Counted from the stretch's first letter, positions 13,512 through 63,933 are shown. The stretch: DNA of 64,000 nucleotides from a virus (IMGVR_UViG_3300043464_002177); one strand, 5' to 3'. The notes: a model not told the origin generated them from the sequence alone. Made by a program: numbers and translations.

Positions 13512-13880
13512 TTTGTGATTGTAATACAGGGAGCCCAAAAAAGTAGGGCTACAGGGGGTAATATCGCCAATAAATTTAGTACGATAGACGATGTACCTAA
13601 AATGGCAGTAAAATATATGTTTATTTATATAAATGTAGTCAATTTGTCATGGTCATAAAACCATAATACCTACTTCTTTTTTTTAGCTTTTGCTACCTTA
13701 ATTTTGTTAACAGTATGCTTCTGACCAAGATTATCAAGGAAGAGTTCACCTATAAAATAGAATAAAACTACACCTAAAGGAAAAAGGAATGTGCTCATAA
13801 TTTCAAGTTTTAATATGCAAAATTAATTATTAATATCCATACTACCAAATCTATTGTGCAAAATGTAGAGCATTTGTTGT

Positions 13881-51862: not shown

Positions 51863-53218
51863 ATGAAGAAAAAAATACTATTGTTATCTGATGATTTAAG
51901 AATGTCATCAGGTATTGCCACTATGTCGAAAGAGATTGTGATGGGCACCATACACAAGTATGATTGGGTACAACTTGGTGCTGCAATTAAACATCCAGAG
52001 TTCGGTAAAGTTGTTGATATAAACGATGATATCCGTAAAAGAACTGGTGTTAAAAATGCAAATTTAAAAATAATCCCATACAATGGTTATGGTGATATTG
52101 GTGTTTTAAGAAAATTAATAAAAGAAGAGAAGCCGGATGCTATTCTTCATTTTACTGATCCACATTATTGGCAGTGGTTGTATGATAATGAACATGAAGT
52201 TAGACAACAAGTTCCTTTATTGTATTATCATATATGGGATAATTTACCAGATCCATTATATAATAGAAACTATTATGAAAGTTGTGACTGGTTAGGTTGT
52301 ATATCTAAGCAAACATATGGTATCGTACATAGAGTTGGTAAATTACAAAATGGTTCCACATGGAAACCTTTAGAAGATTGGCAGATCAAATACGTTCCTC
52401 ATGGTATTAACCCAGAAACATTCAAACCATTGGATAAAGTTTCAGATGAAATAAAAAATATTATCTTTGGTGATAAGAAGTATGATTTTGTTTTATTTTT
52501 TAACAGTAGAAACATTAGAAGGAAACAACCAAGTGATGTTATCTATTCATTTAAATTGTTTTGTGATCAACTACCAAAAGAAAAAGCAGATAAGTGTCTA
52601 TTATTAATGCACACAGCCGCTGTTGATGAGAACGGAACAGACTTACCAGCAGTTATCGAAACTCTTTGTCCATATGATGTTAAGTTTACAGGATTAAAGT
52701 TAGAACAAGATAAGTTAAATGAAATATATAACCTAGTCGATTGTACTATCAACATCGCTAACAATGAAGGGTTTGGTTTAACAACGGCAGAATCATTGAT
52801 GGCTGGTACACCAATTATTGTTAATGTGACTGGTGGCTTACAAGATCAATGTGGATTTGAATATAGTGCAGATGATTATATTTCAGTTGGAACGTTACAT
52901 AATAAAAAAGTACACAGCTCAATATCACATGGCGAATGGGTAGAACCGATTTGGTCATCAGCTATAAATTTAAATGGATCTGTACCAACCCCATACATTT
53001 TTGATGACAGGGTAAACGATGATGATGTTGCAAATGTTATCATGAAGATGTATAAGATAGGTAAGAAAAAAAGAAAAGCAAAAGGATTAAAAGGTAGAGA
53101 GTTTATGTTAAACAATCTATCCAATAAAATAATGTGTGATAAAATGATTGAGGGTATTGAAGATGCTCTTAAGAATTGGGAACCTAAAAAAAGATTTGAT
53201 TTATATAAAATAGTATGA
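51863..53218 (+). CDS. GT-B fold glycosyltransferase (GT4/group-1 family)
   Basis: NNEGFGLTTAESLMAGTPIIVNVTGGLQDQ matches the E-x-F-G ... E-A-x-A-x-G-x-P-V-I signature. Confidence 0.55.
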   Translation: MKKKILLLSDDLRMSSGIATMSKEIVMGTIHKYDWVQLGAAIKHPEFGKVVDINDDIRKRTGVKNANLKIIPYNGYGDIGVLRKLIKEEKPDAILHFTDPHYWQWLYDNEHEVRQQVPLLYYHIWDNLPDPLYNRNYYESCDWLGCISKQTYGIVHRVGKLQNGSTWKPLEDWQIKYVPHGINPETFKPLDKVSDEIKNIIFGDKKYDFVLFFNSRNIRRKQPSDVIYSFKLFCDQLPKEKADKCLLLMHTAAVDENGTDLPAVIETLCPYDVKFTGLKLEQDKLNEIYNLVDCTINIANNEGFGLTTAESLMAGTPIIVNVTGGLQDQCGFEYSADDYISVGTLHNKKVHSSISHGEWVEPIWSSAINLNGSVPTPYIFDDRVNDDDVANVIMKMYKIGKKKRKAKGLKGREFMLNNLSNKIMCDKMIEGIEDALKNWEPKKRFDLYKIV

Positions 53219-54474
53219 GTAAACCGTTTTTATTATTTAGAGGGCCAGTACAAACTAGAAGTGGGTATGGCGCGCATTCAAGAGACCTTTTACAGGCTCT
53301 GTATGAAATGAACACATATGACATTAAGATTGACAGTTGTGGCTGGGGATCAACCCCAATGACTGCGCTAGAAAAAAATAATGTTTTTCATAAATGGATA
53401 GAATCAAATATCATATCATCACTAACAACACAGCCAGATGTTTATGTTCAAGTAACTGTACCAAATGAATTTCAAAGAGTTGGTAAGATTAACATAGGTA
53501 TCACTGCTGGAATTGAAACAACCGTCGCACCTAAATCTTGGGTTGATGGTTGTAACAAAATGGATATGATCATTGCGACATCACAATTTTCTAGTGAGGT
53601 TTTAATGAGTACAGTTTACAATGAGACCGATAATGTTACAGGAAAATTAATTAAACAACATAAGATTGAAAAACCAATAAAGGTTCTTTTTGAAGGTGTT
53701 CATCCTGATACATTCAACAATGAATATAGTGATATCGATTTAAATATTAATGAAGATTTTGCTTTCCTTTTTGTTGGTCATTGGTTAAAAGGTAATTTAG
53801 GTCAAGACAGAAAAGATGTGGGTATGTTAATCAAGTGTTTTGTTGAGGCATTTAAAAATGAGGAAAACAAACCGGCATTGATTCTTAAAACTTCATCAGC
53901 AACTTTCTCAATAAAGCAAAGAGAAGATCTATCTAAAAAAATAAAAGAATTGGTTGGTGACATTGAAACACCGCCACCAATTTACCTATTGTTTGGAGAA
54001 TTAACAGATAAAGAAATGAACAATCTTTACAACCATTCTAAAATTAAAGCAATGATTTCTTTAACAAAGGGTGAAGGATTCGGTAGACCACTATTAGAAT
54101 TCACAATGACTGGCAAACCGGTTATTGCATCTAATTGGTCTGGACATAAAGATTTCTTACCAATGGATAAGGGAATCATGATTGGCGGTAAATTAAACGA
54201 AGTTGATGAAAGTGCTATTGATGATTTCATTTTAAAAGGTTCAAAGTGGTTCACCGCAAATTACAATGAAGCTGCTGAAGTTATGAAGATCGTAAAGAAT
54301 GATTACCAGAAATTTTTAGATCGTGCAGAAAATCTAAGAATTGAAAATTCGACTAAGTTTAGTTTCCAGAGAATGGTAGAAGAGTTTGAAAAATTGTTAC
54401 CGAAAACAGTTCCACAAGAAGAGTTACCAAAACAAAAGCCAATTAACTTACCTAAATTAAATAAAATAAAATAA
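53215..54474 (+). CDS. GT-B fold glycosyltransferase (group-1-like)
   Basis: GEGFGRPLLEFTMTGKPVIASNWSGHKDFL. Confidence 0.5.
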   Translation: MSKPFLLFRGPVQTRSGYGAHSRDLLQALYEMNTYDIKIDSCGWGSTPMTALEKNNVFHKWIESNIISSLTTQPDVYVQVTVPNEFQRVGKINIGITAGIETTVAPKSWVDGCNKMDMIIATSQFSSEVLMSTVYNETDNVTGKLIKQHKIEKPIKVLFEGVHPDTFNNEYSDIDLNINEDFAFLFVGHWLKGNLGQDRKDVGMLIKCFVEAFKNEENKPALILKTSSATFSIKQREDLSKKIKELVGDIETPPPIYLLFGELTDKEMNNLYNHSKIKAMISLTKGEGFGRPLLEFTMTGKPVIASNWSGHKDFLPMDKGIMIGGKLNEVDESAIDDFILKGSKWFTANYNEAAEVMKIVKNDYQKFLDRAENLRIENSTKFSFQRMVEEFEKLLPKTVPQEELPKQKPINLPKLNKIK

Positions 54475-54483
54475 AATGCCTAT

Positions 54484-55107
54484 ATGAAAATTAGTTTTGC
54501 GATCACAGTATGTAATGAGTTTGAAGAAATCAAACAGTTAGTACCATTCTTAATCGAGAACAAAAGAGTAAACGATGAAATTGTTATTCTATTTGATAAT
54601 AAAAATGGAGATGAAAGAGTCTTAAATTATTTGTTAGAATTTAATAAACTACCAAATGTGCAGACTTGGCAAAGCATGGATTTTAATAATGATTTTTCGG
54701 AATGGAAAAATAAATTAAACGAATATTGTACAGGTGATTATATTTTTCAATTAGATGCTGACGAATTAATAAGTGAGTATATGGTTAAAAATCTACATGA
54801 GATAATCGAAGCTAACGATGAGATTGACTTATTTTATGTCCCAAGAATCAATACAGTAAAGGGAATTACTGAAGAACATATTAGAAGATGGAGATGGAAT
54901 GTAGACGCCGATGGTAGAGTAAACTTCCCAGATTACCAGGGTAGAATTTATAAATCTAAATTAAAATGGGGTGGTAAGGTACATGAAAGAATAGTAGGGG
55001 CTAAATTTTATTCTCTATTACCAACAGAAGATATGTACTCGTTATCACACCACAAAACAATTAGTAGACAAGAAAAACAAAATGATTATTATGAAAACAT
55101 TAAATGA
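54484..55107 (+). CDS. GT-A fold glycosyltransferase-like protein
   Basis: ISFAITVCNE ... FQLDADELI (DxD). Confidence 0.4.
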   Translation: MKISFAITVCNEFEEIKQLVPFLIENKRVNDEIVILFDNKNGDERVLNYLLEFNKLPNVQTWQSMDFNNDFSEWKNKLNEYCTGDYIFQLDADELISEYMVKNLHEIIEANDEIDLFYVPRINTVKGITEEHIRRWRWNVDADGRVNFPDYQGRIYKSKLKWGGKVHERIVGAKFYSLLPTEDMYSLSHHKTISRQEKQNDYYENIK

Positions 55108-55633
55108 AATTTATCAAAATTATCAATCACCTGATGGTCACGGTGATAAGGGCACAGCGCACACATACATAGATGAATATGAAAGATTATTAGAACCATA
55201 TAGAAAGAATTCAATTGTTCTTGAAATTGGTTTATGTGAAGGCGAATCTTTGAGAATGTGGGAAGAATATTTTATTGATTCAAAAGTGATTGGTGTCGAT
55301 ATCACTAGCAAATATTTAAGTGAATTAATTAAGGAGTGTACACATCACATTATTATTGCTGATGCAACTAGAGAGAGTATAATAAATAAAATTGATGAGA
55401 AAACATTTGATGTTTTAATTGATGATGGTAGTCATCGTCTAGTAGATCAACTAAAAACATTTTTTATTTTTAAAAATAAGATTAACCCTGGTGGGATTTA
55501 TATTATTGAAGATATTGAGGATTTGGATAATGTAAAAAATATCTTCTTAGCACTTCACAATAACGTAGAAATTATCGATAATAGACATATAAAAGGTAGA
55601 CACGATGATGTGTTAATAGTATATAAATTTTAA
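55082..55633 (+). CDS. class I SAM-dependent methyltransferase
   Basis: VLEIGLCEGES (motif I), VIGVDIT, VLIDDGSH. Confidence 0.5.
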   Translation: MIIMKTLNEIYQNYQSPDGHGDKGTAHTYIDEYERLLEPYRKNSIVLEIGLCEGESLRMWEEYFIDSKVIGVDITSKYLSELIKECTHHIIIADATRESIINKIDEKTFDVLIDDGSHRLVDQLKTFFIFKNKINPGGIYIIEDIEDLDNVKNIFLALHNNVEIIDNRHIKGRHDDVLIVYKF

Positions 55634-55636
55634 ACT

Positions 55637-56632
55637 ATGAAAGTATTAATTACAGGTATTGCGGGGCTGCTAGGTTCCAGATTAACAGATTACATCATTG
55701 AAAATCATCCGGATGTTCATATTGTTGGTATTGATGATTTAAGCGGTGGTTATTATGAAAACATTAATCATAAAGTTCCAGAATTTAGAAGATTAAATTT
55801 GGTAACAGGTGATTTGGAAAGTTGTTTTGAGGAACATAAATTTGATTATGTATACCACTTTGCAGCATATGCTGCTGAAGGTTTATCACCTTTCATTAGA
55901 AAATACAATTATGAAAATAATTTAATTTCAACAACCAGGATTATTAATCAATGCATCAAACACGATGTTAAAAGATTAGTTTTCACATCTACTATGGCAG
56001 TTTATGGGCATGGTTATGGTGATGTCTTTGATGAAGCTCAAATCCCTTCACCAATTGATCCATATGGTATTGCTAAATACGCTTGTGAAATGGATATTAA
56101 AGTTGCTGGTGAACAACACGGGCTTGATTGGTGCATCATTAGACCACACAATGTTTATGGGATTAAACAAAACATATGGGATAAATACCGTAACGTATTA
56201 GGTATTTGGATGTATCAACATATGAACGGTGAACCAATGACAATATTTGGAGATGGTGAACAAAAAAGAGCGTTCAGTTATATTGATGATTGTTTAGAGG
56301 GATTATGGAAAGCATCACAACTTCCTGAATGTTCTAAAGAGATTATTAATTTAGGTGGTACTAAACACTATACCATAAACGAAGCAAATAAGATTTTGCG
56401 TGAAGTTATTAATGGTGGAGAGACTATCCACAAAGAACAAAGACATGAAGTTAAAACAGCAGTACCCACTTGGGCTAAATCTGTTAGACTACTTGGTTAT
56501 GAAGATAAAACATCTTTACATGATGGTTTAAAATCAATGTGGGAGTGGGCTCAACAGCAACCAAAGAGAGATAGATTCATATGGGATTCATATGAACTAG
56601 ATAAAGGAATTTATAGTTTTTGGAAAAAATAA
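55637..56632 (+). CDS. NAD-dependent sugar epimerase/dehydratase (extended SDR)
   Basis: VLITGIAGLLGSRL Rossmann motif; YGIAKYACE (YxxxK). Confidence 0.7.
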   Translation: MKVLITGIAGLLGSRLTDYIIENHPDVHIVGIDDLSGGYYENINHKVPEFRRLNLVTGDLESCFEEHKFDYVYHFAAYAAEGLSPFIRKYNYENNLISTTRIINQCIKHDVKRLVFTSTMAVYGHGYGDVFDEAQIPSPIDPYGIAKYACEMDIKVAGEQHGLDWCIIRPHNVYGIKQNIWDKYRNVLGIWMYQHMNGEPMTIFGDGEQKRAFSYIDDCLEGLWKASQLPECSKEIINLGGTKHYTINEANKILREVINGGETIHKEQRHEVKTAVPTWAKSVRLLGYEDKTSLHDGLKSMWEWAQQQPKRDRFIWDSYELDKGIYSFWKK

Positions 56633-56636
56633 GAAT

Positions 56637-57218
56637 ATGAAAAAAATAGAATTTATTATCCCAACTTATAACAGACCAGATAAATTAATGGTAATGTTAT
56701 CATCAATAAAAGCTCAATCCGTTGACTTATGGAAAGTGCATGTTGTTGCTGATGCAGTATATGACGGGTATCAAGAAATAAAAGATTACTTTAAAGATGA
56801 CGAGAGATTTAAATTCTCTGAATTAAATGGTCCACATAAAGATTGGGGTCACACAGCAAGAAACTATGGATTAGAAAGAGCTGAAGAAGAATGGGTAGTA
56901 ATGTCTGGTGATGACAATTATTATGTTCCTGTTTTTGTTGCAGAATTTTTAGATGCGGTAAAATTCAGAAAAGACGCAAACTTCGTTCATTGTAATTTAG
57001 TACACAACTGGCTAAACAATGATTATATTGGTTTAATGTCTAGACCTCAACTTAACGGTATTGATATCGGTAACTTTATGACAAAGACAAAATTCGCAAA
57101 ACAAATGAGATTAGATGTTACTAAAGTAGATGCTGATGGGTTATTTGTAGAAGAATATATAGACAAATTTAAAGGAGGTATCATTCACATTCAAAAAATA
57201 TTATATGTCCACAACTAA
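56637..57218 (+). CDS. family-2 glycosyltransferase
   Basis: EFIIPTYNRPDKLMVMLSSI; SGDDNYY. Confidence 0.5.
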   Translation: MKKIEFIIPTYNRPDKLMVMLSSIKAQSVDLWKVHVVADAVYDGYQEIKDYFKDDERFKFSELNGPHKDWGHTARNYGLERAEEEWVVMSGDDNYYVPVFVAEFLDAVKFRKDANFVHCNLVHNWLNNDYIGLMSRPQLNGIDIGNFMTKTKFAKQMRLDVTKVDADGLFVEEYIDKFKGGIIHIQKILYVHN

Positions 57219-57648
57219 TATTGAGGGACACATACCAATACCTAGAAAAAATTATAATAAAAAACCAACATTACTAATAATAAGCGGAGAATCAATGGTT
57301 GGTAAAACTACATTGTGTTTTTTACTAAAGGAGGTTAAAAAATCTTATTATGTTAGTCTTGATCAATTAACATTAGATGTAAATTTACCAATAAAAAGTA
57401 TTAACGATTTGGTTAGTAAATTTGGTAATGATTTTTCTGCCCGTTCCATTTTTTATTTTTGTGAACACGTTTTCAGGAATAAAATAATTTTTATAGATTA
57501 TTGTTTTAATTTAATATTAAATAAAAAACAAGAACTTTTTATCTTTGATGGGGTTTATTTTACAAATGAAGAGTTTTTAAATGAGTTTATCAAAAAATTT
57601 GAAGATGCCTATCACATATGGATCGTCAATAGACCAACAAAAAAATAA
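57205..57648 (+). CDS. P-loop NTPase (kinase-like)
   Basis: Walker A GESMVGKTT. Confidence 0.45.
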   Translation: MSTTNIEGHIPIPRKNYNKKPTLLIISGESMVGKTTLCFLLKEVKKSYYVSLDQLTLDVNLPIKSINDLVSKFGNDFSARSIFYFCEHVFRNKIIFIDYCFNLILNKKQELFIFDGVYFTNEEFLNEFIKKFEDAYHIWIVNRPTKK

Positions 57649-57651
57649 TAT

Positions 57652-58764
57652 ATGAATATAACATTTGTTCTTGCAGTATTAAATAAATTAGATTTAACCA
57701 AAGATTGTTATTCTAGAATAAGGGATCTTTACCCAGAAGCACCATTCGTTATAAGTAGTGGTGGTTCAACTGATGGCACAAAAGAATGGTTGTTAGAAAT
57801 GTCTGATAAAGATGAATACTTAACAATTTTTCACGATGACGATAGATTAACATTTTCTGAAACATACAATTCAGGAATTAAGATGGTCGATACTGAAAAA
57901 TTAGTTTTGATTCACAATGATATGATCATAGGTGAAGGGTTTTTAGAGGCTATAGATAGACTATTAACCCCAAACATGTTATTATCATATACAACAATAG
58001 AACCACCCATTTTTAAGGGACATAGAAGACCAGGTAAAGTATTAATAGATCTGGGCTCATCGTTTGCTGATTTTGATTACTTTAACTTTAATGCATATGT
58101 TACTGCGAATAATAATAACGACATTTTATATGATGGTGCAGTTTTCTTTATGAGTGGATATAAGAAGATGTTTGAAGAAGTCGGGTTTTTTGATGGGTTT
58201 AGTTTCGTTCCTTGTTTCTGTGAAGATGATGATTTTATTATTAGAGCTAAATTAAAAGGTTATGAATTAAAAACTTGTGAGTCTGCAATTGTTTATCATT
58301 TTGTTTCACAAACGTCTAGATTTAGTGATGAGTTTAAAAAAGACAGAATAATTCATGAAGTAGCATCTACTAGAAATTTCGTAAGAAAATGGGGGGTAAC
58401 AATATCGGTGTTTAACGAATTGCGTTATTGGGAAGAGAAAAATTTTAAGTACAATACATTTTCAATGGGCTTACTTACAAGAAACAAAAAGAGATTAATG
58501 GAGGTAGAACCATTTTTCGACAAAATAGATCTAGGGGAAATACCTGAAGATTATATTAACAATGAACAAAAGAGAACCAGATATGATATTAGAACTAAAT
58601 TTACATTAACAGATACTGTAGATGTACTTATCACTGAGGTTAGTGAATTTACGGATGAAGATATTAATACATTAAAACGATTAAGATTATCAATACCTTA
58701 CTATGAACCTGGTGAATATCATATAGGTAATATGTTAATACAAATAAAAAAGGAGCTTAATTAG
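57652..58764 (+). CDS. family-2 glycosyltransferase
   Basis: FVLAVLNKLDLT ... SSGGSTDGT; CEDDDF. Confidence 0.5.
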   Translation: MNITFVLAVLNKLDLTKDCYSRIRDLYPEAPFVISSGGSTDGTKEWLLEMSDKDEYLTIFHDDDRLTFSETYNSGIKMVDTEKLVLIHNDMIIGEGFLEAIDRLLTPNMLLSYTTIEPPIFKGHRRPGKVLIDLGSSFADFDYFNFNAYVTANNNNDILYDGAVFFMSGYKKMFEEVGFFDGFSFVPCFCEDDDFIIRAKLKGYELKTCESAIVYHFVSQTSRFSDEFKKDRIIHEVASTRNFVRKWGVTISVFNELRYWEEKNFKYNTFSMGLLTRNKKRLMEVEPFFDKIDLGEIPEDYINNEQKRTRYDIRTKFTLTDTVDVLITEVSEFTDEDINTLKRLRLSIPYYEPGEYHIGNMLIQIKKELN

Positions 58765-59287: not shown

Positions 59288-60295
59288 CTAAATTATTGTC
59301 AAAAGTGCATAAGTTATCATAATTGAGATCCACACAATTAACGCTTTTAAATAGGTCATAAATCCGGTATGGAAATACCTTTGACCAATAGGTAAACACT
59401 TATGTGACGGTGAGATCAAATATGCTGAGTATTCTAATGTGAAGAACAGAACAAAATACTGCATACCAAACACACTTGTTAATAAGCTAACGATACTAGC
59501 ATACTTTGCTGACGACCCTAACATAAATGATGATAGGAAAGATATAACAGAAACCACTAGAATATATTCTGGTTTACTATATTGTTTGATATATGATTCT
59601 ATCACACCATAGTAAGAACCAACAAGGTTACCTAGAATGATCACTAATGCAACGATCCATATCAATTCCCAGTCAATATAACCCATTAGTTTATACCAAC
59701 TTTTAGAATAATATACTAACCATAGTGTAAACCCTGTAAAGAAACCAAAATAATATTCAGTAAGAAATACACACATTAGTATAGTAACCAAGAACGGTAT
59801 AACCACCATAGTAATGTTTTGCATATTAATTGGTTCGTCTTTAACTTCAATATCAATCTCATCATCATTTAATGATAAAATATAATATGTTACATATAAT
59901 ACAGATATTAAAAGCAACGGCCAGATATATGACATGAATTGCATATAAGTTAAACTCAACACAGCCATTGGAATAATAACAGTCTTCTCTAATGGTGACC
60001 ATAGATAATAGTGGTGTGTTGCTAGGTAATCAATGATACCAAACTTCTTACGTTTCTTATTATCAACAGGTGCAATACTGTTTAACATTGATGCCGATAA
60101 TGCAACACGCCCAGGGATAGGTAAGATACCACCAAATAGTGACACTAGGAATACCACCATTTTTTTAGACTTAACTTTTTGTTCAAGTAGTCTGAAAATG
60201 TCCATAAGGTATCCTCTTTCTTTGAGAATACCTGTTACGAACATAATGAATATTAAATAGACAAGGAACTCTTGTCCTTTGATTAGAATTGACAT
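59288..60295 (-). CDS. polytopic membrane protein (possible polysaccharide polymerase/ligase-type)
   Basis: About 9-10 hydrophobic helices; function inferred only from adjacency to glycosyltransferase cluster. Confidence 0.3.
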   Translation of the reverse strand: MSILIKGQEFLVYLIFIMFVTGILKERGYLMDIFRLLEQKVKSKKMVVFLVSLFGGILPIPGRVALSASMLNSIAPVDNKKRKKFGIIDYLATHHYYLWSPLEKTVIIPMAVLSLTYMQFMSYIWPLLLISVLYVTYYILSLNDDEIDIEVKDEPINMQNITMVVIPFLVTILMCVFLTEYYFGFFTGFTLWLVYYSKSWYKLMGYIDWELIWIVALVIILGNLVGSYYGVIESYIKQYSKPEYILVVSVISFLSSFMLGSSAKYASIVSLLTSVFGMQYFVLFFTLEYSAYLISPSHKCLPIGQRYFHTGFMTYLKALIVWISIMITYALLTII

Positions 60296-60297
60296 AA

Positions 60298-62073
60298 TTA
60301 AAAATTATATTTAAGGTTTAAATTAATACTTCTTGTTGGTAAATCAACTGACGATCCCCAAACTCTACTAGCATCATTGAATAAGTTATAAAACAACATA
60401 GTGTATTCTAAATTTTTATACTTTGTGGTGTATCCAATGTTCACCAATCTCACACCTTTATTGTGTAAAAATTGTCGAACATCATTTCTATCTGCAAATG
60501 ATAAAGATTGATCAATTGGTTGATATCTACCTTCCACCCATAGCTTATTATAATTTAGTTTGATGTAGCCAAAATATGGTACTGTTTTATCAACTGGTTC
60601 TGTTGTGGTTCCTGTTAATCTTTTAACACCATAAACATATTCTGCTCTAGCATTCACACCTAATTTAGTTCCAAACAAACTATCATTAAAATAACCTAAC
60701 GTTGCACCGTTTACCGAAACGCCACCAATGTTATCTGTCCTAAAGACGTTTGTCGATAGTACGGTTACATTAAATGCTTCATCTAATTCTTTAAAGTAAA
60801 CGTCTAAATATAAATTACTTCTTTTATAACCAAATCGATATGTTTGACCTCTCTCTTGTATTAAATCCGGGTTTGGTAATTGTGTACCTCTACCATTTGT
60901 CATTGCTTGTTTAATCATCAAATAACTTGGTGCGTTTAAGCTATTGTCATAACTTGCAAATAGACCTTTGTATCCAACAATTGCTGAATATTCAAAACCA
61001 TTAAATGGATCAATATCAGTTATTTGAACATTCTTTAATCCTAAGCTTGTATAAACTTTTACTTTACCAATTTCATTAATCCAACGAATACCATGCTTTG
61101 TTGTTTTGTAATCATCGTTTGATACCCCGCCAACTAAACCATTTTCATATCTGATTTTTTCGATTGTGTTTGTTGAATATATACTAAATGAATGTGGTAA
61201 TTGATATTCAAGATTTGCGGTATATGCGTCTAGGCGACTAGCAACTTTTTTTGTCCCATCTAAAATATCTTCTGCACTGTTTTGATACGCAAGGTTCACA
61301 CGTAGTCTGTTTAAATTCATCTCATGATTAACAAACAAATATCTTTGTAGTTCCCATGTATAAACCGCCGGTCTTTGATAACCAGAGCTTCTGAAGCCAC
61401 CATTCCATCTATCTGTTCTTTCTAAATCATTTGATTGTGAAAAAATTAAAGTTGTTTTTTGTGTTGAAGACCAGTTCGCTTCAGACACCAATGCTTTTTG
61501 ATTGTAAGCACTGTGTTGAAATGTACTATCAGGAGATATCACATTACCATAGTCAATGTTGTTAAACCCAATACCAAATTTCTTACCCTTATAAGATGCT
61601 GATTGGCTAAATCCATCCGTACCACCCACATAATTTAATCCAACATGTGATGATTGAACACCAACCTTTCTTTCGATTGTTCCACCAATATTACCACCAT
61701 CTGTAATAGAAATTAACTTTGTGAATTCTAGTGGAACCCATCCAAAATATTGGTTTGGTCCGGTTCTAAACAAACCGTTATTAACCCTAATACCATTAAT
61801 TGATTGGTCAACTTGATTACCAGTAAACGCCCCAACATATGGACTTAGTTGTCCTGGACTTGTTTCCTGAATTCGTGCAGAGTTCAAGTATACTTTCGGG
61901 TTTTTTATTACTTGTTGCACCTGATAGTTGGTGCCCCCAACAACAACAACTTCTTTCAATTCTATTGAAGCTGTGTCTTTTTGAATTGTACCGCTACTTT
62001 GTTGTCCAAATGACATAGTAGTAGTAAACAATAGTGCTAACATTAGCGATAGCATTGTGATTGTTTTTCTCAT
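60298..62073 (-). CDS. TonB-dependent-receptor-like outer-membrane beta-barrel protein
   Basis: Start at MRKTITMLSLMLALLFTTTMSFGQQ (signal peptide); plug-like region (VVVVGGTNY ... DGGNIGGTIER); alternating beta-strand pattern; C-terminal ...LKYNF aromatic terminus. Confidence 0.45.
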   Translation of the reverse strand: MRKTITMLSLMLALLFTTTMSFGQQSSGTIQKDTASIELKEVVVVGGTNYQVQQVIKNPKVYLNSARIQETSPGQLSPYVGAFTGNQVDQSINGIRVNNGLFRTGPNQYFGWVPLEFTKLISITDGGNIGGTIERKVGVQSSHVGLNYVGGTDGFSQSASYKGKKFGIGFNNIDYGNVISPDSTFQHSAYNQKALVSEANWSSTQKTTLIFSQSNDLERTDRWNGGFRSSGYQRPAVYTWELQRYLFVNHEMNLNRLRVNLAYQNSAEDILDGTKKVASRLDAYTANLEYQLPHSFSIYSTNTIEKIRYENGLVGGVSNDDYKTTKHGIRWINEIGKVKVYTSLGLKNVQITDIDPFNGFEYSAIVGYKGLFASYDNSLNAPSYLMIKQAMTNGRGTQLPNPDLIQERGQTYRFGYKRSNLYLDVYFKELDEAFNVTVLSTNVFRTDNIGGVSVNGATLGYFNDSLFGTKLGVNARAEYVYGVKRLTGTTTEPVDKTVPYFGYIKLNYNKLWVEGRYQPIDQSLSFADRNDVRQFLHNKGVRLVNIGYTTKYKNLEYTMLFYNLFNDASRVWGSSVDLPTRSINLNLKYNF

Positions 62074-62106
62074 TTTGTTTTTGTTTAAGAAAAATTTATA
62101 AAATTG

Positions 62107-62196
62107 CGGGGAGGAAGAGATTCGGACTCTCGATTGAATGTTAAGTCCAATAGCAGCTTCGGAGGCTGTCGGTTTAAACCACTCACCCACCTCCCC
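62107..62196 (-). tRNA. tRNA-like cloverleaf, 90 nt (anticodon-loop CUCCGAA suggests anticodon CCG; long variable arm)
   Basis: On - strand: 7-bp acceptor stem GGGGAGG/CCUCCCC; U8; D-arm with A14, GG, A21; anticodon stem CAGC/GCUG with loop C-U-CCG-A-A; 21-nt variable arm with 5-bp stem; T-arm GAGAG-UCCGAAU-CUCUU (G53, C56, A58, C61 conserved; C at 55); discriminator G; no encoded CCA. Confidence 0.35.
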
Positions 62197-62240
62197 TTGC
62201 AATCATATTATAATATAAACAAAAAATATCAGATATACAA

Positions 62241-62939
62241 CTATCTTTCAATTAAAAATATTCCAAGACCATTCCAAAAGTCAGTGCTATCCTCACCAGA
62301 TGTGAAGATTTCTCTATAATGACTAATAAATAAATTATTATCATTTATAAACTTATCAAAAGCACCACCGTTCCAATTCCAATCGTCCATGATAAGAATA
62401 GTTTGATTAGAAAATATGGGTAACATATTAGTTAATGCCACGTATTGATCATGAAATTTTGTTTCACCATCATAAAAAATAATGTCAACATTTGGTAAGG
62501 TACTAAAATCAAATGTTTGATAATCTGTTTTATATACTGAAGTTTTATTAACATTACCATGTTTTTTAACATTCAATAAAAATTCCTCCTGTGGTATTGT
62601 TTCAATATTATGTTTATAGTAGTTACCTATTTTTTGACTAACACCCTTTGGTGTTAAGTTAGGTGACATGAAGTTGTCAATACCTATTGCGTTAATATTA
62701 TTACTATATATTGCAGAACAAAAAGTGGCCCCTCTAAACACACCAACCTCTAGGTACGTTGTGCCATCAATGTTACAAATATTATTAAGAAAGGCTCTGA
62801 CTTTATTGCTGGTGATTCCATGTATATCTAAAATTTCTTGTGTTAATTTAGATACTTCAAGTTTACCCCATTCAATAGATTCATCTATATGTTTAACTAA
62901 GTCCATATGATTTCTTTTTGTGGTTAGCAACGACGTCAC
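62241..62939 (-). CDS. class I SAM-dependent methyltransferase-like protein
   Basis: YLEVGVFRGATF glycine-rich motif; IMDDWNW. Confidence 0.4.
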   Translation of the reverse strand: MTSLLTTKRNHMDLVKHIDESIEWGKLEVSKLTQEILDIHGITSNKVRAFLNNICNIDGTTYLEVGVFRGATFCSAIYSNNINAIGIDNFMSPNLTPKGVSQKIGNYYKHNIETIPQEEFLLNVKKHGNVNKTSVYKTDYQTFDFSTLPNVDIIFYDGETKFHDQYVALTNMLPIFSNQTILIMDDWNWNGGAFDKFINDNNLFISHYREIFTSGEDSTDFWNGLGIFLIER

Positions 62940-63933
62940 AATAGTTACAATCCCAGCACTGAAATTTACATTTCTTTATTTTATTTCTCCATCCTTTTAA
63001 CTCCTCGTGTGGAATACCGTCAAGATATATGTGTGATGTTTCAGATAGTATTTCTTTACCCTGTACATATGAATCAACAATTTCCATGGTTTCTTTTAAT
63101 CGATTGAAACTATCTCTACCATGCATTTTAAAAACATCAATGTATTCTAAAAATTCATCAAACTCTTCTTTAAATGGTGGTATTGTTCCTGTCTTGAAAA
63201 AGAAAGCATTAATATCTTTTTCCCATTTATGTTCACAAGTTACTTTGGAGATCTCGTGATGAAAGTATGGTAATTCGTTGTTTGTTCTTAAGTTATTATA
63301 TGTGTAATGTTCATCCATCACTGGGCATCTACCTAAACAACCTTCATTAACTAGTAATGATATTTTAACATATCTACCTTTATCTTCTTGATATTTTAAT
63401 TGTGCTCTCTTAATGTTTTTTAACTCTTCAACATCTCTCATTAAAATTCTATCAAGGTTAATGTAATCAAACCCCTGATCCGCATTATACCAAAAGTCTT
63501 GTCCTGTTGCAACCTTTCTTAATATAGTATTTTTAATTTCCATCTCAGGAAAATGTTTCTTAAGCCCCATTGCAACCCAATGACCGTGTGGAATAGTAAT
63601 GCACCTCAAACCCTTTTCATATAAGGGTTTCAGATTATCAACAAACAATTTATAGTTCTGATAATTTGGTGAGATGTTAACATTATTAAATGTTGCACTT
63701 ATTTTTATACCTAACGCCTTTTGTATAATCATTGCGTTTTCAAACACAACATCCCTATCCTCTTCTCTGAACACAGCACCCATAGCGTCTTGTGTGAATG
63801 GTGGTGTTCTACATGTAAAATAAATGTCATAGATCCATTCTTTATTTCTTTCTAAGAATGGATAGAATTCATTCATGAACATATCCTCCGTTAACATTGG
63901 ATTAAACGGTATTGAAAATATTTTCTTTATCAT
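62893..63933 (-). CDS. hypothetical Cys-rich protein (346 aa)
   Basis: ORF; C-terminal CKFQCWDCNYCD cluster and CLGRCP. Confidence 0.45.
   Translation of the reverse strand: MIKKIFSIPFNPMLTEDMFMNEFYPFLERNKEWIYDIYFTCRTPPFTQDAMGAVFREEDRDVVFENAMIIQKALGIKISATFNNVNISPNYQNYKLFVDNLKPLYEKGLRCITIPHGHWVAMGLKKHFPEMEIKNTILRKVATGQDFWYNADQGFDYINLDRILMRDVEELKNIKRAQLKYQEDKGRYVKISLLVNEGCLGRCPVMDEHYTYNNLRTNNELPYFHHEISKVTCEHKWEKDINAFFFKTGTIPPFKEEFDEFLEYIDVFKMHGRDSFNRLKETMEIVDSYVQGKEILSETSHIYLDGIPHEELKGWRNKIKKCKFQCWDCNYCDVVANHKKKSYGLS

What the first reader, a model, noticed from the sequence alone, without database searches (positions are those of the whole stretch)
62107..62196. 90-nt GC-rich cloverleaf 30 nt upstream of the TBDR-like gene: candidate tRNA with a long variable arm
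In an AT-rich intergenic region, a - strand segment folds into a canonical tRNA layout. It has a perfect 7-bp acceptor stem (GGGGAGG/CCUCCCC), U8, a D-arm with A14, G18-G19 and A21, an anticodon stem-loop with U33 and purine 37 (loop CUCCGAA gives anticodon CCG, Arg), a 21-nt variable arm that forms its own 5-bp stem, and a T-arm GAGAG-UCCGAAU-CUCUU with G53, C56, A58 and C61, followed by discriminator G. Position 55 is C rather than U, there is an A-C mismatch at the top of the anticodon stem, and CCA is not encoded, so it may be a divergent phage tRNA, a tRNA-derived regulatory element, or a remnant attachment site. Large phages often carry tRNAs; a class-II-shaped Arg tRNA would be odd and worth confirming.
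Basis: seen in the sequence. Interest (0 to 1): 0.6.

Follow-up and report, generated by a model that had tools for sequence, protein, structure and literature searches.

The report
Phage tRNA: serine body, arginine anticodon
A real, strongly conserved tRNA gene carried by some members of a family of large AT-rich phages has the build of a serine tRNA but the anticodon for the rare arginine codon CGG, and the phages that carry it are the ones that use CGG in their tail-fibre-like genes.

Summary
Window 62107-62196 (- strand) is a tRNA gene: ARAGORN calls it, and the Rfam tRNA model scores it 50 bits. It is the only tRNA in the window.

- **Conservation.** Near-identical copies occur in 32 viral and 10 metagenome contigs. 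There are three sequence variants, with five compensatory base-pair changes between them.
- **Body.** It is seryl-type: 3-bp D stem, long variable arm, G73, G1-C72 and G2-C71. Profiles built here score it Ser 28-40 bits and Arg no hit. It lacks A20, the main bacterial ArgRS determinant.
- **Anticodon.** It is CCG in every copy.
- **Accessory status.** Close relatives lack exactly this ~107-nt unit at the same site.
- **Codon use.** Carriers use CGG about 5 times more than non-carriers. Nearly all of it lies in large tail-fibre-like proteins and phrog_1417 paralogs just upstream.
- **What CGG means.** CGG sits at Arg-conserved columns. One is a motif Arg that is CGG in 18/20 carrier hits and a non-CGG Arg codon in 29/30 non-carrier hits.

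I conclude that it is a working CGG decoder on a recruited seryl scaffold. It probably delivers Arg. Ser, or mixed Arg/Ser, is a serious rival.

No cellular counterpart turned up in 185,579 genomes within the pattern searched. It is not an attachment-site remnant.

The parts
62107..62196 (-). tRNA gene, 90 nt to the discriminator. Class II cloverleaf with a 7-bp acceptor stem and 5-bp T stem, anticodon CCG, no encoded CCA.
   Evidence: ARAGORN. Rfam RF00005 at 50 bits. Covariation counts: 98.4% of cells paired and 22/26 pairs covarying with tRNA-Ser relatives; 5 compensatory pairs within the CCG family.
62160..62162 (-). Anticodon C34 C35 G36, which reads CGG, inside the loop CUCCGAA.
   Evidence: Invariant in all three sequence variants and all copies.
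62132..62152 (-). Variable region, 21 nt: U44, then a 6-bp AU-rich stem ATTGGA/TTCAAT with a 7-nt loop, then C48. There is one unpaired base on each side of the stem, as in tRNA-Ser.
   Evidence: Sequence. Indels among copies fall only in the loop, which is 6, 7 or 9 nt. The stem is kept in variants T2 and T3.
62120..62126 (-). T loop UCCGAAU, with C at position 55 (window 62125) instead of the usual U.
   Evidence: C55 is invariant in T1, T2 and T3. The TCC form is rare among the phage tRNAs collected here, 15 of 523 scorable T loops, and some of those were selected by my own search pattern.
62143..62150 (-). 5' strand of the variable arm (UUGGACUU). It can alternatively pair with the T stem/loop GAGUCCGA (62122-62129). 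Significance unexplained.
   Evidence: Part of the MFE fold at -31.1 kcal/mol, against -25.6 for the cloverleaf. Paired in 9/9 distinct family sequences with one compensatory change. Not kept in tRNA-Ser relatives.
62211..62226 (-). Conserved upstream box TTTTTTGTTTATATTA, promoter-like. It also lies in front of the downstream gene in relatives that lack the tRNA.
   Evidence: junction comparison. Promoter function is inferred, not shown.
62074..62106 (-). 33-nt spacer CAATTTTATAAATTTTTCTTAAACAAAAACAAA between the tRNA 3' end and the next start codon. No terminator-like site. It contains TATAAAT.
60298..62073 (-). Downstream gene, 591 aa with an N-terminal signal-peptide-like sequence. Probably co-transcribed with the tRNA. 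The first ~32 codons are conserved and the rest is replaced in many relatives. Context only.
   Evidence: No family hit.
62241..62939 (-). Upstream gene: SAM-methyltransferase domain, matching the C-terminal half of phrog_1458. It is the syntenic anchor used to class relatives as carrying or lacking the tRNA. Context only.

Best explanation
This is a functional, accessory phage tRNA that reads the rare codon CGG. Its scaffold was recruited from a phage seryl-type (class II) tRNA.

Proposed mechanism:
1. It is transcribed from the promoter/leader region of the next gene, into which it is inserted. This is inferred.
2. Host RNase P and a 3' endonuclease cut it out, and the host CCA-adding enzyme completes it. 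This is inferred from the absent CCA and the absent terminator.
3. It then supplies decoding capacity for CGG.

In these ~33% G+C phages CGG is almost absent unless the tRNA is present. In carriers it is concentrated at Arg positions of the large tail-fibre-like proteins and phrog_1417 paralogs encoded just upstream.

Those CGG codons sit at Arg-conserved columns, one of them a near-invariant motif Arg. I therefore think the tRNA delivers arginine, at least in substantial part. ArgRS would recognise it through C35, G36 and G73 despite the missing A20. The amino acid is inferred and not shown.
For: Real and selected:
- (ARAGORN and Rfam).
- The tRNA is about 100% identical in 27 contigs whose flanks are 74-99% identical.
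- Variants T1, T2 and T3 differ by compensatory pairs 3-70, 4-69, 5-68, 30-40 and 52-62, while the anticodon and T loops are invariant.

Accessory unit:
- It is cleanly absent from the same site in close relatives.
- It also occurs in a second genomic context.

Codon link:
- Carriers have 106 CGG in 128,398 codons; non-carriers have 18 in 110,832. CGA, AGG and G+C are equal. Mann-Whitney p=0.0012 over 9 vs 19 lineage groups.
- Large proteins: 63 CGG in 28,592 codons in carriers, and 19/19 ORFs have at least one. Non-carriers have 0 in 6,900.
- phrog_1417 family: 31 in 19,322 against 2 in 31,900.
- At position 25 of one phrog_1417 paralog, CGG occurs in 21/28 carrier loci and 0/23 non-carrier loci, interleaved in the gene tree.

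CGG means Arg:
- CGG columns are Arg-majority in 63% and at least 90% Arg in 43%. The other Arg codons give 60-65% and 44-47%.
- In the large proteins 76% are Arg-majority, against 74% for AGG.
- The Arg of the motif ...DISSTRTINV... is CGG in 18/20 carrier hits. It is AGA, CGT, AGG, CGC or CGA in 29/30 hits in proteins from loci without a known tRNA.

Arginine identity:
- C35, G36 and G73 are arginine determinants (PMC9976931).
- The loop CUCCGAA is identical to that of a class I phage tRNA-Arg(CCG) in L081.
- Long-variable-arm tRNAs for His, Cys, Thr, Lys, Pro and Ile exist in other phage contigs, so extra arms on class I isoacceptors are not unheard of.
Against: Against arginine charging:
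- The body has every known bacterial SerRS determinant: long variable arm, G73, G1-C72 and G2-C71 (PMC9976931).
- It scores as Ser and not as Arg in isotype profiles.
- SerRS ignores the anticodon.
- A20, the main determinant for E. coli-type ArgRS, is U here. It is A in 28 of the 29 class I phage tRNA-Arg whose D loop could be scored.
- Shulgina and Eddy's rule (PMC8629427) would class this tRNA as not an Arg acceptor.

Weaknesses of the codon association:
- It rests on few independent events, about 10-15 CGG columns.
- The carrier tail-fibre genes form one clade for the motif column, which is therefore one event.
- In 13 other shared gene families, carriers have 0 CGG in ~43,000 codons. A general relaxation of selection against CGG would not predict this.

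Other points:
- CGG is very rare in the window itself, 9 of 19,032 codons and mostly in doubtful small ORFs.
- Conservation of the anticodon across T1-T3 is not statistically distinguishable from general loop conservation.
- The host and its tRNA set are unknown.
Confidence: 0.5

Rival explanations
1. Missense or ambiguity tRNA. SerRS charges it because the scaffold is seryl-type and SerRS does not read the anticodon. It then inserts Ser at CGG in competition with the host tRNA-Arg. The effect would be either targeted diversification of tail-fibre and phrog_1417 proteins, giving Arg and Ser isoforms from one gene, or damage to host proteins.
For: - Seryl architecture and determinants. The D arm is identical to that of dozens of phage tRNA-Ser. 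It has G73, G1-C72, G2-C71 and one unpaired base on each side of the variable stem. Variant T3 even starts with the typical tRNA-Ser sequence GGAA.
- The Ser profile scores 27.7-39.8 bits while Arg gives no hit.
- There is no A20.
- Engineered tRNA-Ser with foreign anticodons mistranslates (PMC9976931, citing yeast tRNA-Ser UGG).
- CGG in carriers is confined to hypervariable, probably host-recognition genes rather than spread over all genes.
- Two of the three high-frequency phrog_1417 CGG sites are variable columns.
- Ser-majority columns are slightly over-represented among CGG columns: 3/35, against 5/437 for AGG, CGA and CGT together.
Against: - CGG in carriers sits at Arg-conserved columns as often as other Arg codons do. 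One is a motif Arg conserved in 29/30 hits outside carriers and encoded by CGG in 18/20 carrier hits. Another column is Arg in 157/157 other sequences.
- A Ser-inserting tRNA should make carriers avoid CGG, yet they use it about 5 times more.
- G3-C70 in T1 and T2 is atypical for tRNA-Ser in this data set: only 1 of 97 tRNA-Ser starts GGG, against 67 that start GGA.
Confidence: 0.28
2. Not a decoder. The tRNA-shaped RNA serves another role: a processing signal that sets the 5' end of the downstream mRNA, a decoy or replacement aimed at a host tRNA-targeting defence, or an aminoacyl donor for a non-ribosomal transferase.
For: - It sits in the leader of the next gene with no terminator between them.
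- CGG is too rare in the window (9 codons) for classical codon supplementation.
- It has an unusual C55 and an alternative 8-bp helix kept in all variants.
- Phage enzymes that use charged tRNA outside translation exist. Mom uses Gly-tRNA (PMC13219725).
Against: - None of these roles predicts the link between tRNA presence and CGG codons.
- The tRNA also occurs upstream of a different gene, so it is not tied to one mRNA.
- No tRNA-dependent transferase, synthetase, ligase or nuclease domain was found among 39 window proteins and 10 from related loci scanned against Pfam and/or PHROGs.
- The full set of tertiary-interaction nucleotides is kept.
Confidence: 0.12
3. Neutral passenger or decaying gene. 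A duplicated tRNA-Ser whose anticodon drifted, carried along by recombination with the tail-fibre module. On this view the CGG association is linkage only.
For: - Patchy presence and absence among close relatives.
- The CGG columns are few, and they lie within about 12 kb of the tRNA.
Against: - Near-perfect sequence conservation while flanks diverge 10-25%.
- Three variants with compensatory changes that keep every helix.
- All three anticodon bases differ from any Ser anticodon, and no intermediate forms were found.
- Carriers and non-carriers are interleaved in two gene trees, which argues against simple linkage.
Confidence: 0.1

Closest known systems
Bacterial and phage tRNA-Ser (class II tRNA)
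   Same: - Same D arm (GGGUGAGUGGUUUAAACC) as dozens of phage tRNA-Ser.
- 3-bp D stem plus G13.A22.
- G15 and C48.
- Long variable arm with one unpaired base on each side.
- G73, G1-C72 and G2-C71.
- Best isotype profile match.
   Different: - Anticodon CCG, in the Arg box, instead of NGA or GCU.
- C55 in the T loop.
- A non-Watson-Crick 27-43 pair in most copies.
- G3-C70 in T1 and T2.
- An AU-rich variable stem with an unusually large 6-9 nt loop.
Canonical bacterial and phage tRNA-Arg(CCG)
   Same: - Anticodon loop CUCCGAA, identical to a class I phage tRNA-Arg(CCG) in L081.
- C35, G36 and G73.
- The codon it reads behaves as Arg in these phages.
   Different: - Class II body with a 21-nt variable region, against 4-5 nt.
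- U20 instead of A20.
- No detectable similarity to an Arg profile.
allo-tRNAs (Mukai et al. 2017, PMC5389517)
   Same: The same idea: tRNAs with a long variable arm and predicted serine identity that carry non-serine anticodons, Arg-box anticodons among them. They were proposed to be missense suppressors or regulatory RNAs.
   Different: - allo-tRNAs are defined by an 8/4 or 9/3 acceptor/T-stem geometry. This tRNA is a standard 7/5.
- The mismatched-anticodon forms were attributed to Acidobacteria and other bacteria, whereas this one is phage-borne.
- The predominant allo-tRNA Arg-box anticodon is GCG, not CCG.
tRNA(CCG) with non-Arg identity in CGG-reassigned bacteria (Shulgina and Eddy 2021, PMC8629427)
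   Same: - Low-G+C genomes in which CGG is very rare.
- A dedicated tRNA(CCG) that lacks A20.
   Different: In those bacteria CGG columns shift to Trp or Gln. Here CGG columns remain Arg, so there is no sign of reassignment. The body here is Ser-type, not Trp- or Gln-like.
Accessory tRNAs of T4-like and other large phages (codon supplementation)
   Same: A phage-borne tRNA whose presence goes with use of the matching codon in late structural genes.
   Different: Such tRNAs normally match codons that are common in the phage and have the canonical body for their amino acid. Here the codon is the rarest Arg codon of an AT-rich phage and the body belongs to another amino acid.
tRNA-Ser(CAG) of CTG-clade yeasts and nematode nev-tRNAs
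   Same: Class II tRNAs that carry anticodons of other amino acids and give ambiguous or altered decoding.
   Different: Those are eukaryotic and chromosomal. In the yeast case the codon meaning has demonstrably changed.

Membership tests
tRNA (Rfam RF00005) | Cloverleaf with acceptor, D, anticodon and T arms that scores above the family threshold | tested here: met
   50 bits against a gathering score of 29, model positions 1-71. ARAGORN call. 98.4% of cells paired and 22/26 pairs covarying.
tRNA (Rfam RF00005) | Universal nucleotides U8, A14, G18-G19, A21, U33, G53, U55, C56, A58, C61 | tested here: inconclusive
   All are present except position 55, which is C in every copy. C55 also occurs in a few other phage tRNAs.
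tRNA-Ser (bacterial type) | Long variable arm (the main SerRS determinant), G73, G1-C72 and G2-C71 | tested here: met
   Read from the sequence. Identity rules from PMC9976931. Ser isotype profile: 39.8 bits, and 27.7 bits with a control Ser set not selected by the D-arm motif.
tRNA-Ser (bacterial type) | Anticodon of a serine codon box (NGA or GCU) | tested here: not met
   The anticodon is CCG in all 32 IMG/VR contigs and all 10 metagenome copies.
tRNA-Ser (bacterial type) | Actually charged with serine | not testable with these tools
   Needs an aminoacylation assay or mass spectrometry.
tRNA-Arg (bacterial type) | C35 with G36 or U36, and A73 or G73 | tested here: met
   C35, G36 and G73. 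Rules from PMC9976931.
tRNA-Arg (bacterial type) | A20 in the D loop (the main determinant for E. coli-type ArgRS) | tested here: not met
   The base after G18-G19 is U in all variants. It is A in 28 of the 29 class I phage tRNA-Arg that could be scored.
tRNA-Arg (bacterial type) | Class I body with a 4-5 nt variable loop, and similarity to Arg isoacceptors | tested here: not met
   The variable region is 21 nt. All 48 other tRNA-Arg are 73-77 nt long. The Arg profile gives no hit.
tRNA-Arg (bacterial type) | The codon it reads behaves as arginine in the genomes that carry it | tested here: met
   CGG columns are as Arg-conserved as AGG, CGA and CGT columns. The motif Arg is encoded by CGG in 18/20 carrier hits.
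allo-tRNA (Mukai 2017) | 12-bp acceptor branch split 8/4 or 9/3 | tested here: not met
   7-bp acceptor stem and 5-bp T stem, with U8 and G9 between acceptor and D stems.
Phage attachment-site tRNA remnant | A partial tRNA (usually the 3' half), or a duplicated half, marking an integration junction | tested here: not met
   The gene is full length. Each half occurs once in the window at up to 3 mismatches. No cellular tRNA matching the searched D-loop-plus-CCG-loop pattern turned up in 185,579 genomes. That scan required the CCG anticodon loop, so it would not detect a host tRNA gene sharing only the 3' half.
Sense-codon reassignment (CGG to another amino acid) | Conserved columns at the codon shift to the new amino acid | tested here: not met
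   Arg is the majority in 63-76% of CGG columns. Ser is the majority in 3/35.

The most novel reading that the evidence does not exclude
The phage carries a deliberate missense tRNA. SerRS charges the seryl scaffold, and the tRNA inserts Ser at CGG in competition with the host Arg-tRNA. The CGG codons have been gathered in the tail-fibre-like and phrog_1417 genes, so one genome makes mixed Arg/Ser versions of its host-recognition proteins. This would be programmed decoding ambiguity used as a host-range device. A milder but still new reading is that this is the first class II tRNA that is a true arginine acceptor without A20.
Probability: 0.28. Interest if true: 0.85.

Novelty: new variant of a known kind. 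Interest (0 to 1): 0.62.

Why it matters
Phage tRNAs are usually read as simple codon supplements and are named from the anticodon alone. Here the anticodon says Arg, the body says Ser, and the codon evidence says the tRNA is used.

- If it is charged with Arg, it breaks the rule that bacterial ArgRS needs A20. It would also be a natural class II tRNA-Arg, showing that a seryl scaffold can be moved to another amino acid in nature.
- If it is charged with Ser, it is a natural phage-borne mistranslating tRNA aimed at host-recognition proteins.

Either way the accessory tRNA travels with a tail-fibre module that has become dependent on a codon its relatives avoid. That makes it a compact, testable case of tRNA-codon co-adaptation.

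It is also a warning for annotation pipelines. ARAGORN labels it tRNA-Arg, and a standard Rfam scan of the whole window missed it.

Tried and rejected
1. **CGG reassignment to Ser.** Rejected. CGG columns are Arg-type.
2. **Attachment-site remnant.** Rejected. Neither half is duplicated and the gene is full length.
3. **A cellular source or counterpart.** A scan of 185,579 genomes for the class II D loop plus the CCG loop gave 39 hits. All were chance matches in coding DNA. The same pattern in IMG/VR returned only this family.
4. **Relatives in cultured phages.** No similar tRNA. The only near-DNA match of the window is a thymidylate synthase gene of Flavobacterium phages.
5. **Family members with another anticodon.** None among the 32 IMG/VR contigs that share the 5' half.
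6. **A CGG-rich target gene.** The small ORFs with 3-4 CGG codons look like out-of-frame artefacts.
7. **tRNA-handling enzymes nearby** (synthetase, CCA enzyme, ligase, nuclease, Fem- or GNAT-type transferase). None among the proteins scanned. The neighbours are methyltransferases, a radical SAM enzyme, glycosyltransferases and structural proteins.
8. **Downstream gene as a TonB-dependent receptor.** No support.
9. **Intrinsic terminator after the tRNA.** None. A sigma-70 scan was uninformative.
10. **A uniform rise of CGG in carriers.** Not seen. The excess is confined to two gene families, so I do not claim a genome-wide effect.
11. **First attempt at grouping loci and detecting tRNA-less sites**. 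It was too crude and was replaced.

Full report
**What is there.** The - strand of window 62107-62196 encodes a tRNA. ARAGORN finds exactly one tRNA in the 64 kb, at 62106-62196 (-), with anticodon CCG. The Rfam tRNA model aligns end to end at 50 bits (threshold 29), E 7.9e-10, when 501 nt are searched. The whole-window scan at gathering threshold returned nothing, which I take to be a filter artefact. Three small corrections apply:
- The variable stem is 6 bp, not 5.
- The gap to the next ATG is 33 nt, not 30.
- The 'TBDR-like' label of the next gene has no support from Pfam, PHROGs or PDB sequences.

The minimum-free-energy fold is not the cloverleaf (-31.1 against -25.6 kcal/mol).

**It is conserved and under selection.** The exact 43-nt 5' half occurs in 27 IMG/VR contigs. 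The 25-nt 5' end occurs in 32 contigs, all with anticodon CCG. Ten metagenome contigs carry it as well. Most copies are identical over about 90 nt, while the flanking genes are only 74-99% identical.

There are three sequence variants: T1 (the window), T2 and T3.
- They differ by compensatory double changes at pairs 3-70, 4-69, 5-68, 30-40 and 52-62, plus several G.U changes.
- Length changes fall only in the variable-arm loop.
- The anticodon loop CUCCGAA and the T loop UCCGAAU never change.

When aligned with 13 phage tRNA-Ser, 98.4% of pair cells are standard pairs and 22 of 26 pairs covary. Slid controls give 35-55%.

**The body is a serine tRNA.**
- The D arm GGGUGAGUGGUUUAAACC is the one found in dozens of phage tRNA-Ser. 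Viral tRNAs with this D arm include 87 Ser. The rest are 27 copies of this CCG tRNA, 3 'Cys', 1 'Leu' and 1 Tyr.
- It has a 3-bp D stem with G13.A22, G15 and C48, one unpaired base on each side of the variable stem, G73, G1-C72 and G2-C71.
- These are the bacterial SerRS determinants. [quoted passage not shown]
- I built isotype profiles from ARAGORN-labelled phage tRNAs. They score it 39.8 bits for Ser, or 27.7 bits with a control Ser set that was not selected by the D-arm motif. The next best is Cys at 12 bits. Arg and Leu give no hit.
- The main E. coli-type ArgRS determinant A20 is U here. It is A in 28 of the 29 class I phage tRNA-Arg that could be scored.
- Departures from typical tRNA-Ser: G3-C70 in T1 and T2 (only 1 of 97 tRNA-Ser starts GGG), C55 (rare), a non-Watson-Crick 27-43 pair in most copies, and an AU-rich variable arm with a large loop.

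**No cellular counterpart was found.** A pattern joining the class II D loop to the CCG anticodon loop gave 39 hits in one genome from each of 185,579 species. None is a tRNA. In IMG/VR the same pattern returns only this family.

**It is an accessory insert.**
- I used the neighbouring phrog_1458 protein to fetch 80 syntenic loci. One of them matches at 100% and comes from a 169,422-bp contig, which is probably the source of the window.
- Of the 78 newly fetched loci, 26 carry the tRNA and many close relatives do not.
- In the tRNA-less relatives a unit of about 107 nt is cleanly missing. It lies between a conserved box TTTTTTGTTTATATTA and the leader ATAAACTTTTCTTAAACAAAAACAAAATG of the next gene.
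- A third state has a gene for a membrane protein of about 110 aa at the same spot.
- In L013, L020 and T3 the tRNA lies next to a different gene.
- No terminator-like site separates the tRNA from the next gene, so co-transcription followed by RNase processing is likely but is inferred.
- The nearest cultured relatives of the neighbouring protein are T4-like cyanomyoviruses at about 45% amino-acid identity. The only near-DNA match is to Flavobacterium myovirus thymidylate synthase. The host is unknown.

**Link to CGG codons.** CGG is the rarest Arg codon in the window, 9 of 19,032 codons. I classed loci as carriers or as non-carriers (syntenic site covered, no tRNA) and collapsed them into lineage groups.

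| Set compared | Carriers | Non-carriers |
|---|---|---|
| All ORFs, CGG per 1000 codons | 0.83 (106/128,398) | 0.16 (18/110,832) |
| Large (930-2030 aa) tail-fibre-like proteins | 2.2 (63/28,592) | 0 (0/6,900) |
| phrog_1417 family | 31/19,322 | 2/31,900 |
| 13 other shared families | 0 in ~43,000 | 14 in ~56,500 |

- CGA, AGG and G+C are the same in both sets. Mann-Whitney p=0.0012 over 9 against 19 groups.
- In the large proteins 19 of 19 carrier ORFs have at least one CGG.
- So the excess is not uniform. It comes from two gene families within about 12 kb upstream of the tRNA.
- At position 25 of one phrog_1417 paralog, CGG is present in 21/28 carrier loci and 0/23 non-carrier loci. The two classes are interleaved in the gene tree.
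- The number of independent events is small, about 10-15 columns.

**What CGG means.**
- Across ortholog alignments, 63% of CGG columns are Arg-majority and 43% are at least 90% Arg. AGG, CGA and CGT give 60-65% and 44-47%. Ser is the majority in 3 of 35.
- For CGG codons of carrier tail-fibre-like proteins compared with homologues from other phages, 76% are Arg-majority, against 74% for AGG.
- The Arg of a conserved motif (...GGGDISSTRTINVGAGNG...) is encoded by CGG in 18 of 20 carrier hits. In hits from loci without a known tRNA it is AGA, CGT, AGG, CGC or CGA in 29 of 30.
- One carrier has CGG at a column that is Arg in all 157 other sequences.
- There is therefore no sign of reassignment. 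Carriers have placed CGG at positions where Arg is required.

**Interpretation.** Three things are shown: a selected, accessory tRNA gene with a seryl-type scaffold and a CCG anticodon; an association of that gene with CGG codons in neighbouring structural genes; and Arg-type conservation at those codons. It is inferred that the tRNA is expressed, matured and used on the ribosome, and which amino acid it carries.

The two lines of evidence on the amino acid disagree. Identity rules predict charging by SerRS and poor recognition by ArgRS. The codon data predict Arg. My estimates are:
- Arg, at least in substantial part: about 0.5.
- Ser or mixed Arg/Ser (missense): about 0.28.
- A non-decoding role: about 0.12.
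- A neutral passenger: about 0.1.

Other phage contigs hold long-variable-arm tRNAs for His, Cys, Thr, Lys, Pro and Ile. The class II-like 'Cys' tRNAs carry U73. This makes recruitment of class II-like scaffolds to other amino acids less far-fetched. Unlike those, however, this tRNA has not acquired the expected determinant, A20.

The weak 27-43 pair gives a 4-bp anticodon stem. Such stems have been proposed to let C34 read A-ending codons (PMC13092985). CGA usage does not differ between carriers and non-carriers.

**Unexplained.**
- The 5' strand of the variable arm (UUGGACUU) can pair with the T stem/loop (GAGUCCGA, which includes C55). This 8-bp helix is intact in all nine distinct family sequences, with one compensatory change. 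It is absent from tRNA-Ser relatives and is favoured by the energy model. It may be chance, or it may be the reason C55 is kept.
- It is not clear why CGG is confined to two gene families.

**Comparison with known systems.** It works like an accessory phage tRNA, and it resembles allo-tRNAs in pairing a seryl-type body with a non-Ser anticodon (PMC5389517). It is not an allo-tRNA, because its geometry is 7/5. It fails one defining test for tRNA-Ser (the anticodon) and two for tRNA-Arg (A20 and the class I body). I file it as a new variant of a known kind: a phage accessory tRNA with mismatched body and anticodon. My literature searches found no description of a class II tRNA(CCG).

Noticed in passing
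L037 (3788-7564), L064 (9397-9485, 13287-13378), L100 (90-179, 9881-9966), L051, L069, L074, L077, L080, L120, L125, L134: Many other phage tRNAs with long variable arms (82-93 nt) carry class I anticodons: His-GUG, Cys-GCA, Thr-UGU, Lys-UUU, Pro-UGG, Ile-UAU and Met-CAU. The 'Cys' ones in L064 and L100 have the same seryl-type D arm as the window tRNA but a U73 discriminator, as if re-assigned to CysRS.
   Followed up: partly
L030, about 13710-13803: A 94-nt 'tRNA-Leu(GAG)' with the seryl-type D arm and a G73 discriminator. G73 fits SerRS and is an antideterminant for LeuRS. This is another possible body/anticodon mismatch.
   Followed up: no
L160 3141-3324 (MAG contig CAIPUJ010000074.1, Loclat_bin-14315): A 93-nt tRNA-Lys(UUU) lies next to a tRNA-Ile(UAU) on a short contig binned as bacterial. 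It looks like phage-type irregular tRNAs in a MAG.
   Followed up: no
window 62122-62129 with 62143-62150 (- strand): An alternative 8-bp helix can form between the variable-arm 5' strand and the T stem/loop, and it includes the unusual C55. It is kept in all three tRNA variants with one compensatory change, and the energy model prefers it by about 5.5 kcal/mol.
   Followed up: partly
window 62241-62939 and 62893-63933 (- strand): Two overlapping ORFs together cover one PHROG profile, phrog_1458 (519 positions): an N-terminal unknown part plus a C-terminal SAM methyltransferase. This is either a split gene or a frameshifted one. Many T4-like cyanophage records also annotate two hypothetical proteins under the match.
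   Followed up: no
window 62197-62240 and the equivalent site in L192-L242: The intergenic site between the methyltransferase gene and the secreted-protein gene exists in three states among close relatives: with the tRNA, empty, or holding a membrane-protein ORF of about 110 aa (L193, L194, L242). It is a small insertion hotspot.
   Followed up: partly
window 60298-62073 (- strand): The downstream 591-aa protein has a signal-peptide-like N terminus and matches no family. Its first ~32 codons are conserved across relatives. The remainder is replaced by unrelated, shorter sequence in many of them.
   Followed up: partly
window 51863-58764 (+ strand): A glycosylation cluster: two GT1-type and three GT2-type glycosyltransferases, a methyltransferase and an NAD-dependent epimerase/dehydratase. 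A DUF401/CitMHS-like membrane protein follows at 59288-60295 on the - strand.
   Followed up: no
L001 156-7519 and equivalents (just beyond the window end): The module upstream of the tRNA holds a 930-2030 aa mosaic tail-fibre-like protein with a repeated ...GGGDISSTRTINVGAGNG... motif. It is followed by three tandem phrog_1417 paralogs (~370 aa) and a radical SAM enzyme.
   Followed up: partly
window 1-64000: The standard Rfam scan of the whole window at gathering threshold reported nothing. Yet the tRNA scores 21 bits above threshold when a 501-nt stretch is searched. Long-variable-arm tRNAs can be lost to the speed filters.
   Followed up: yes
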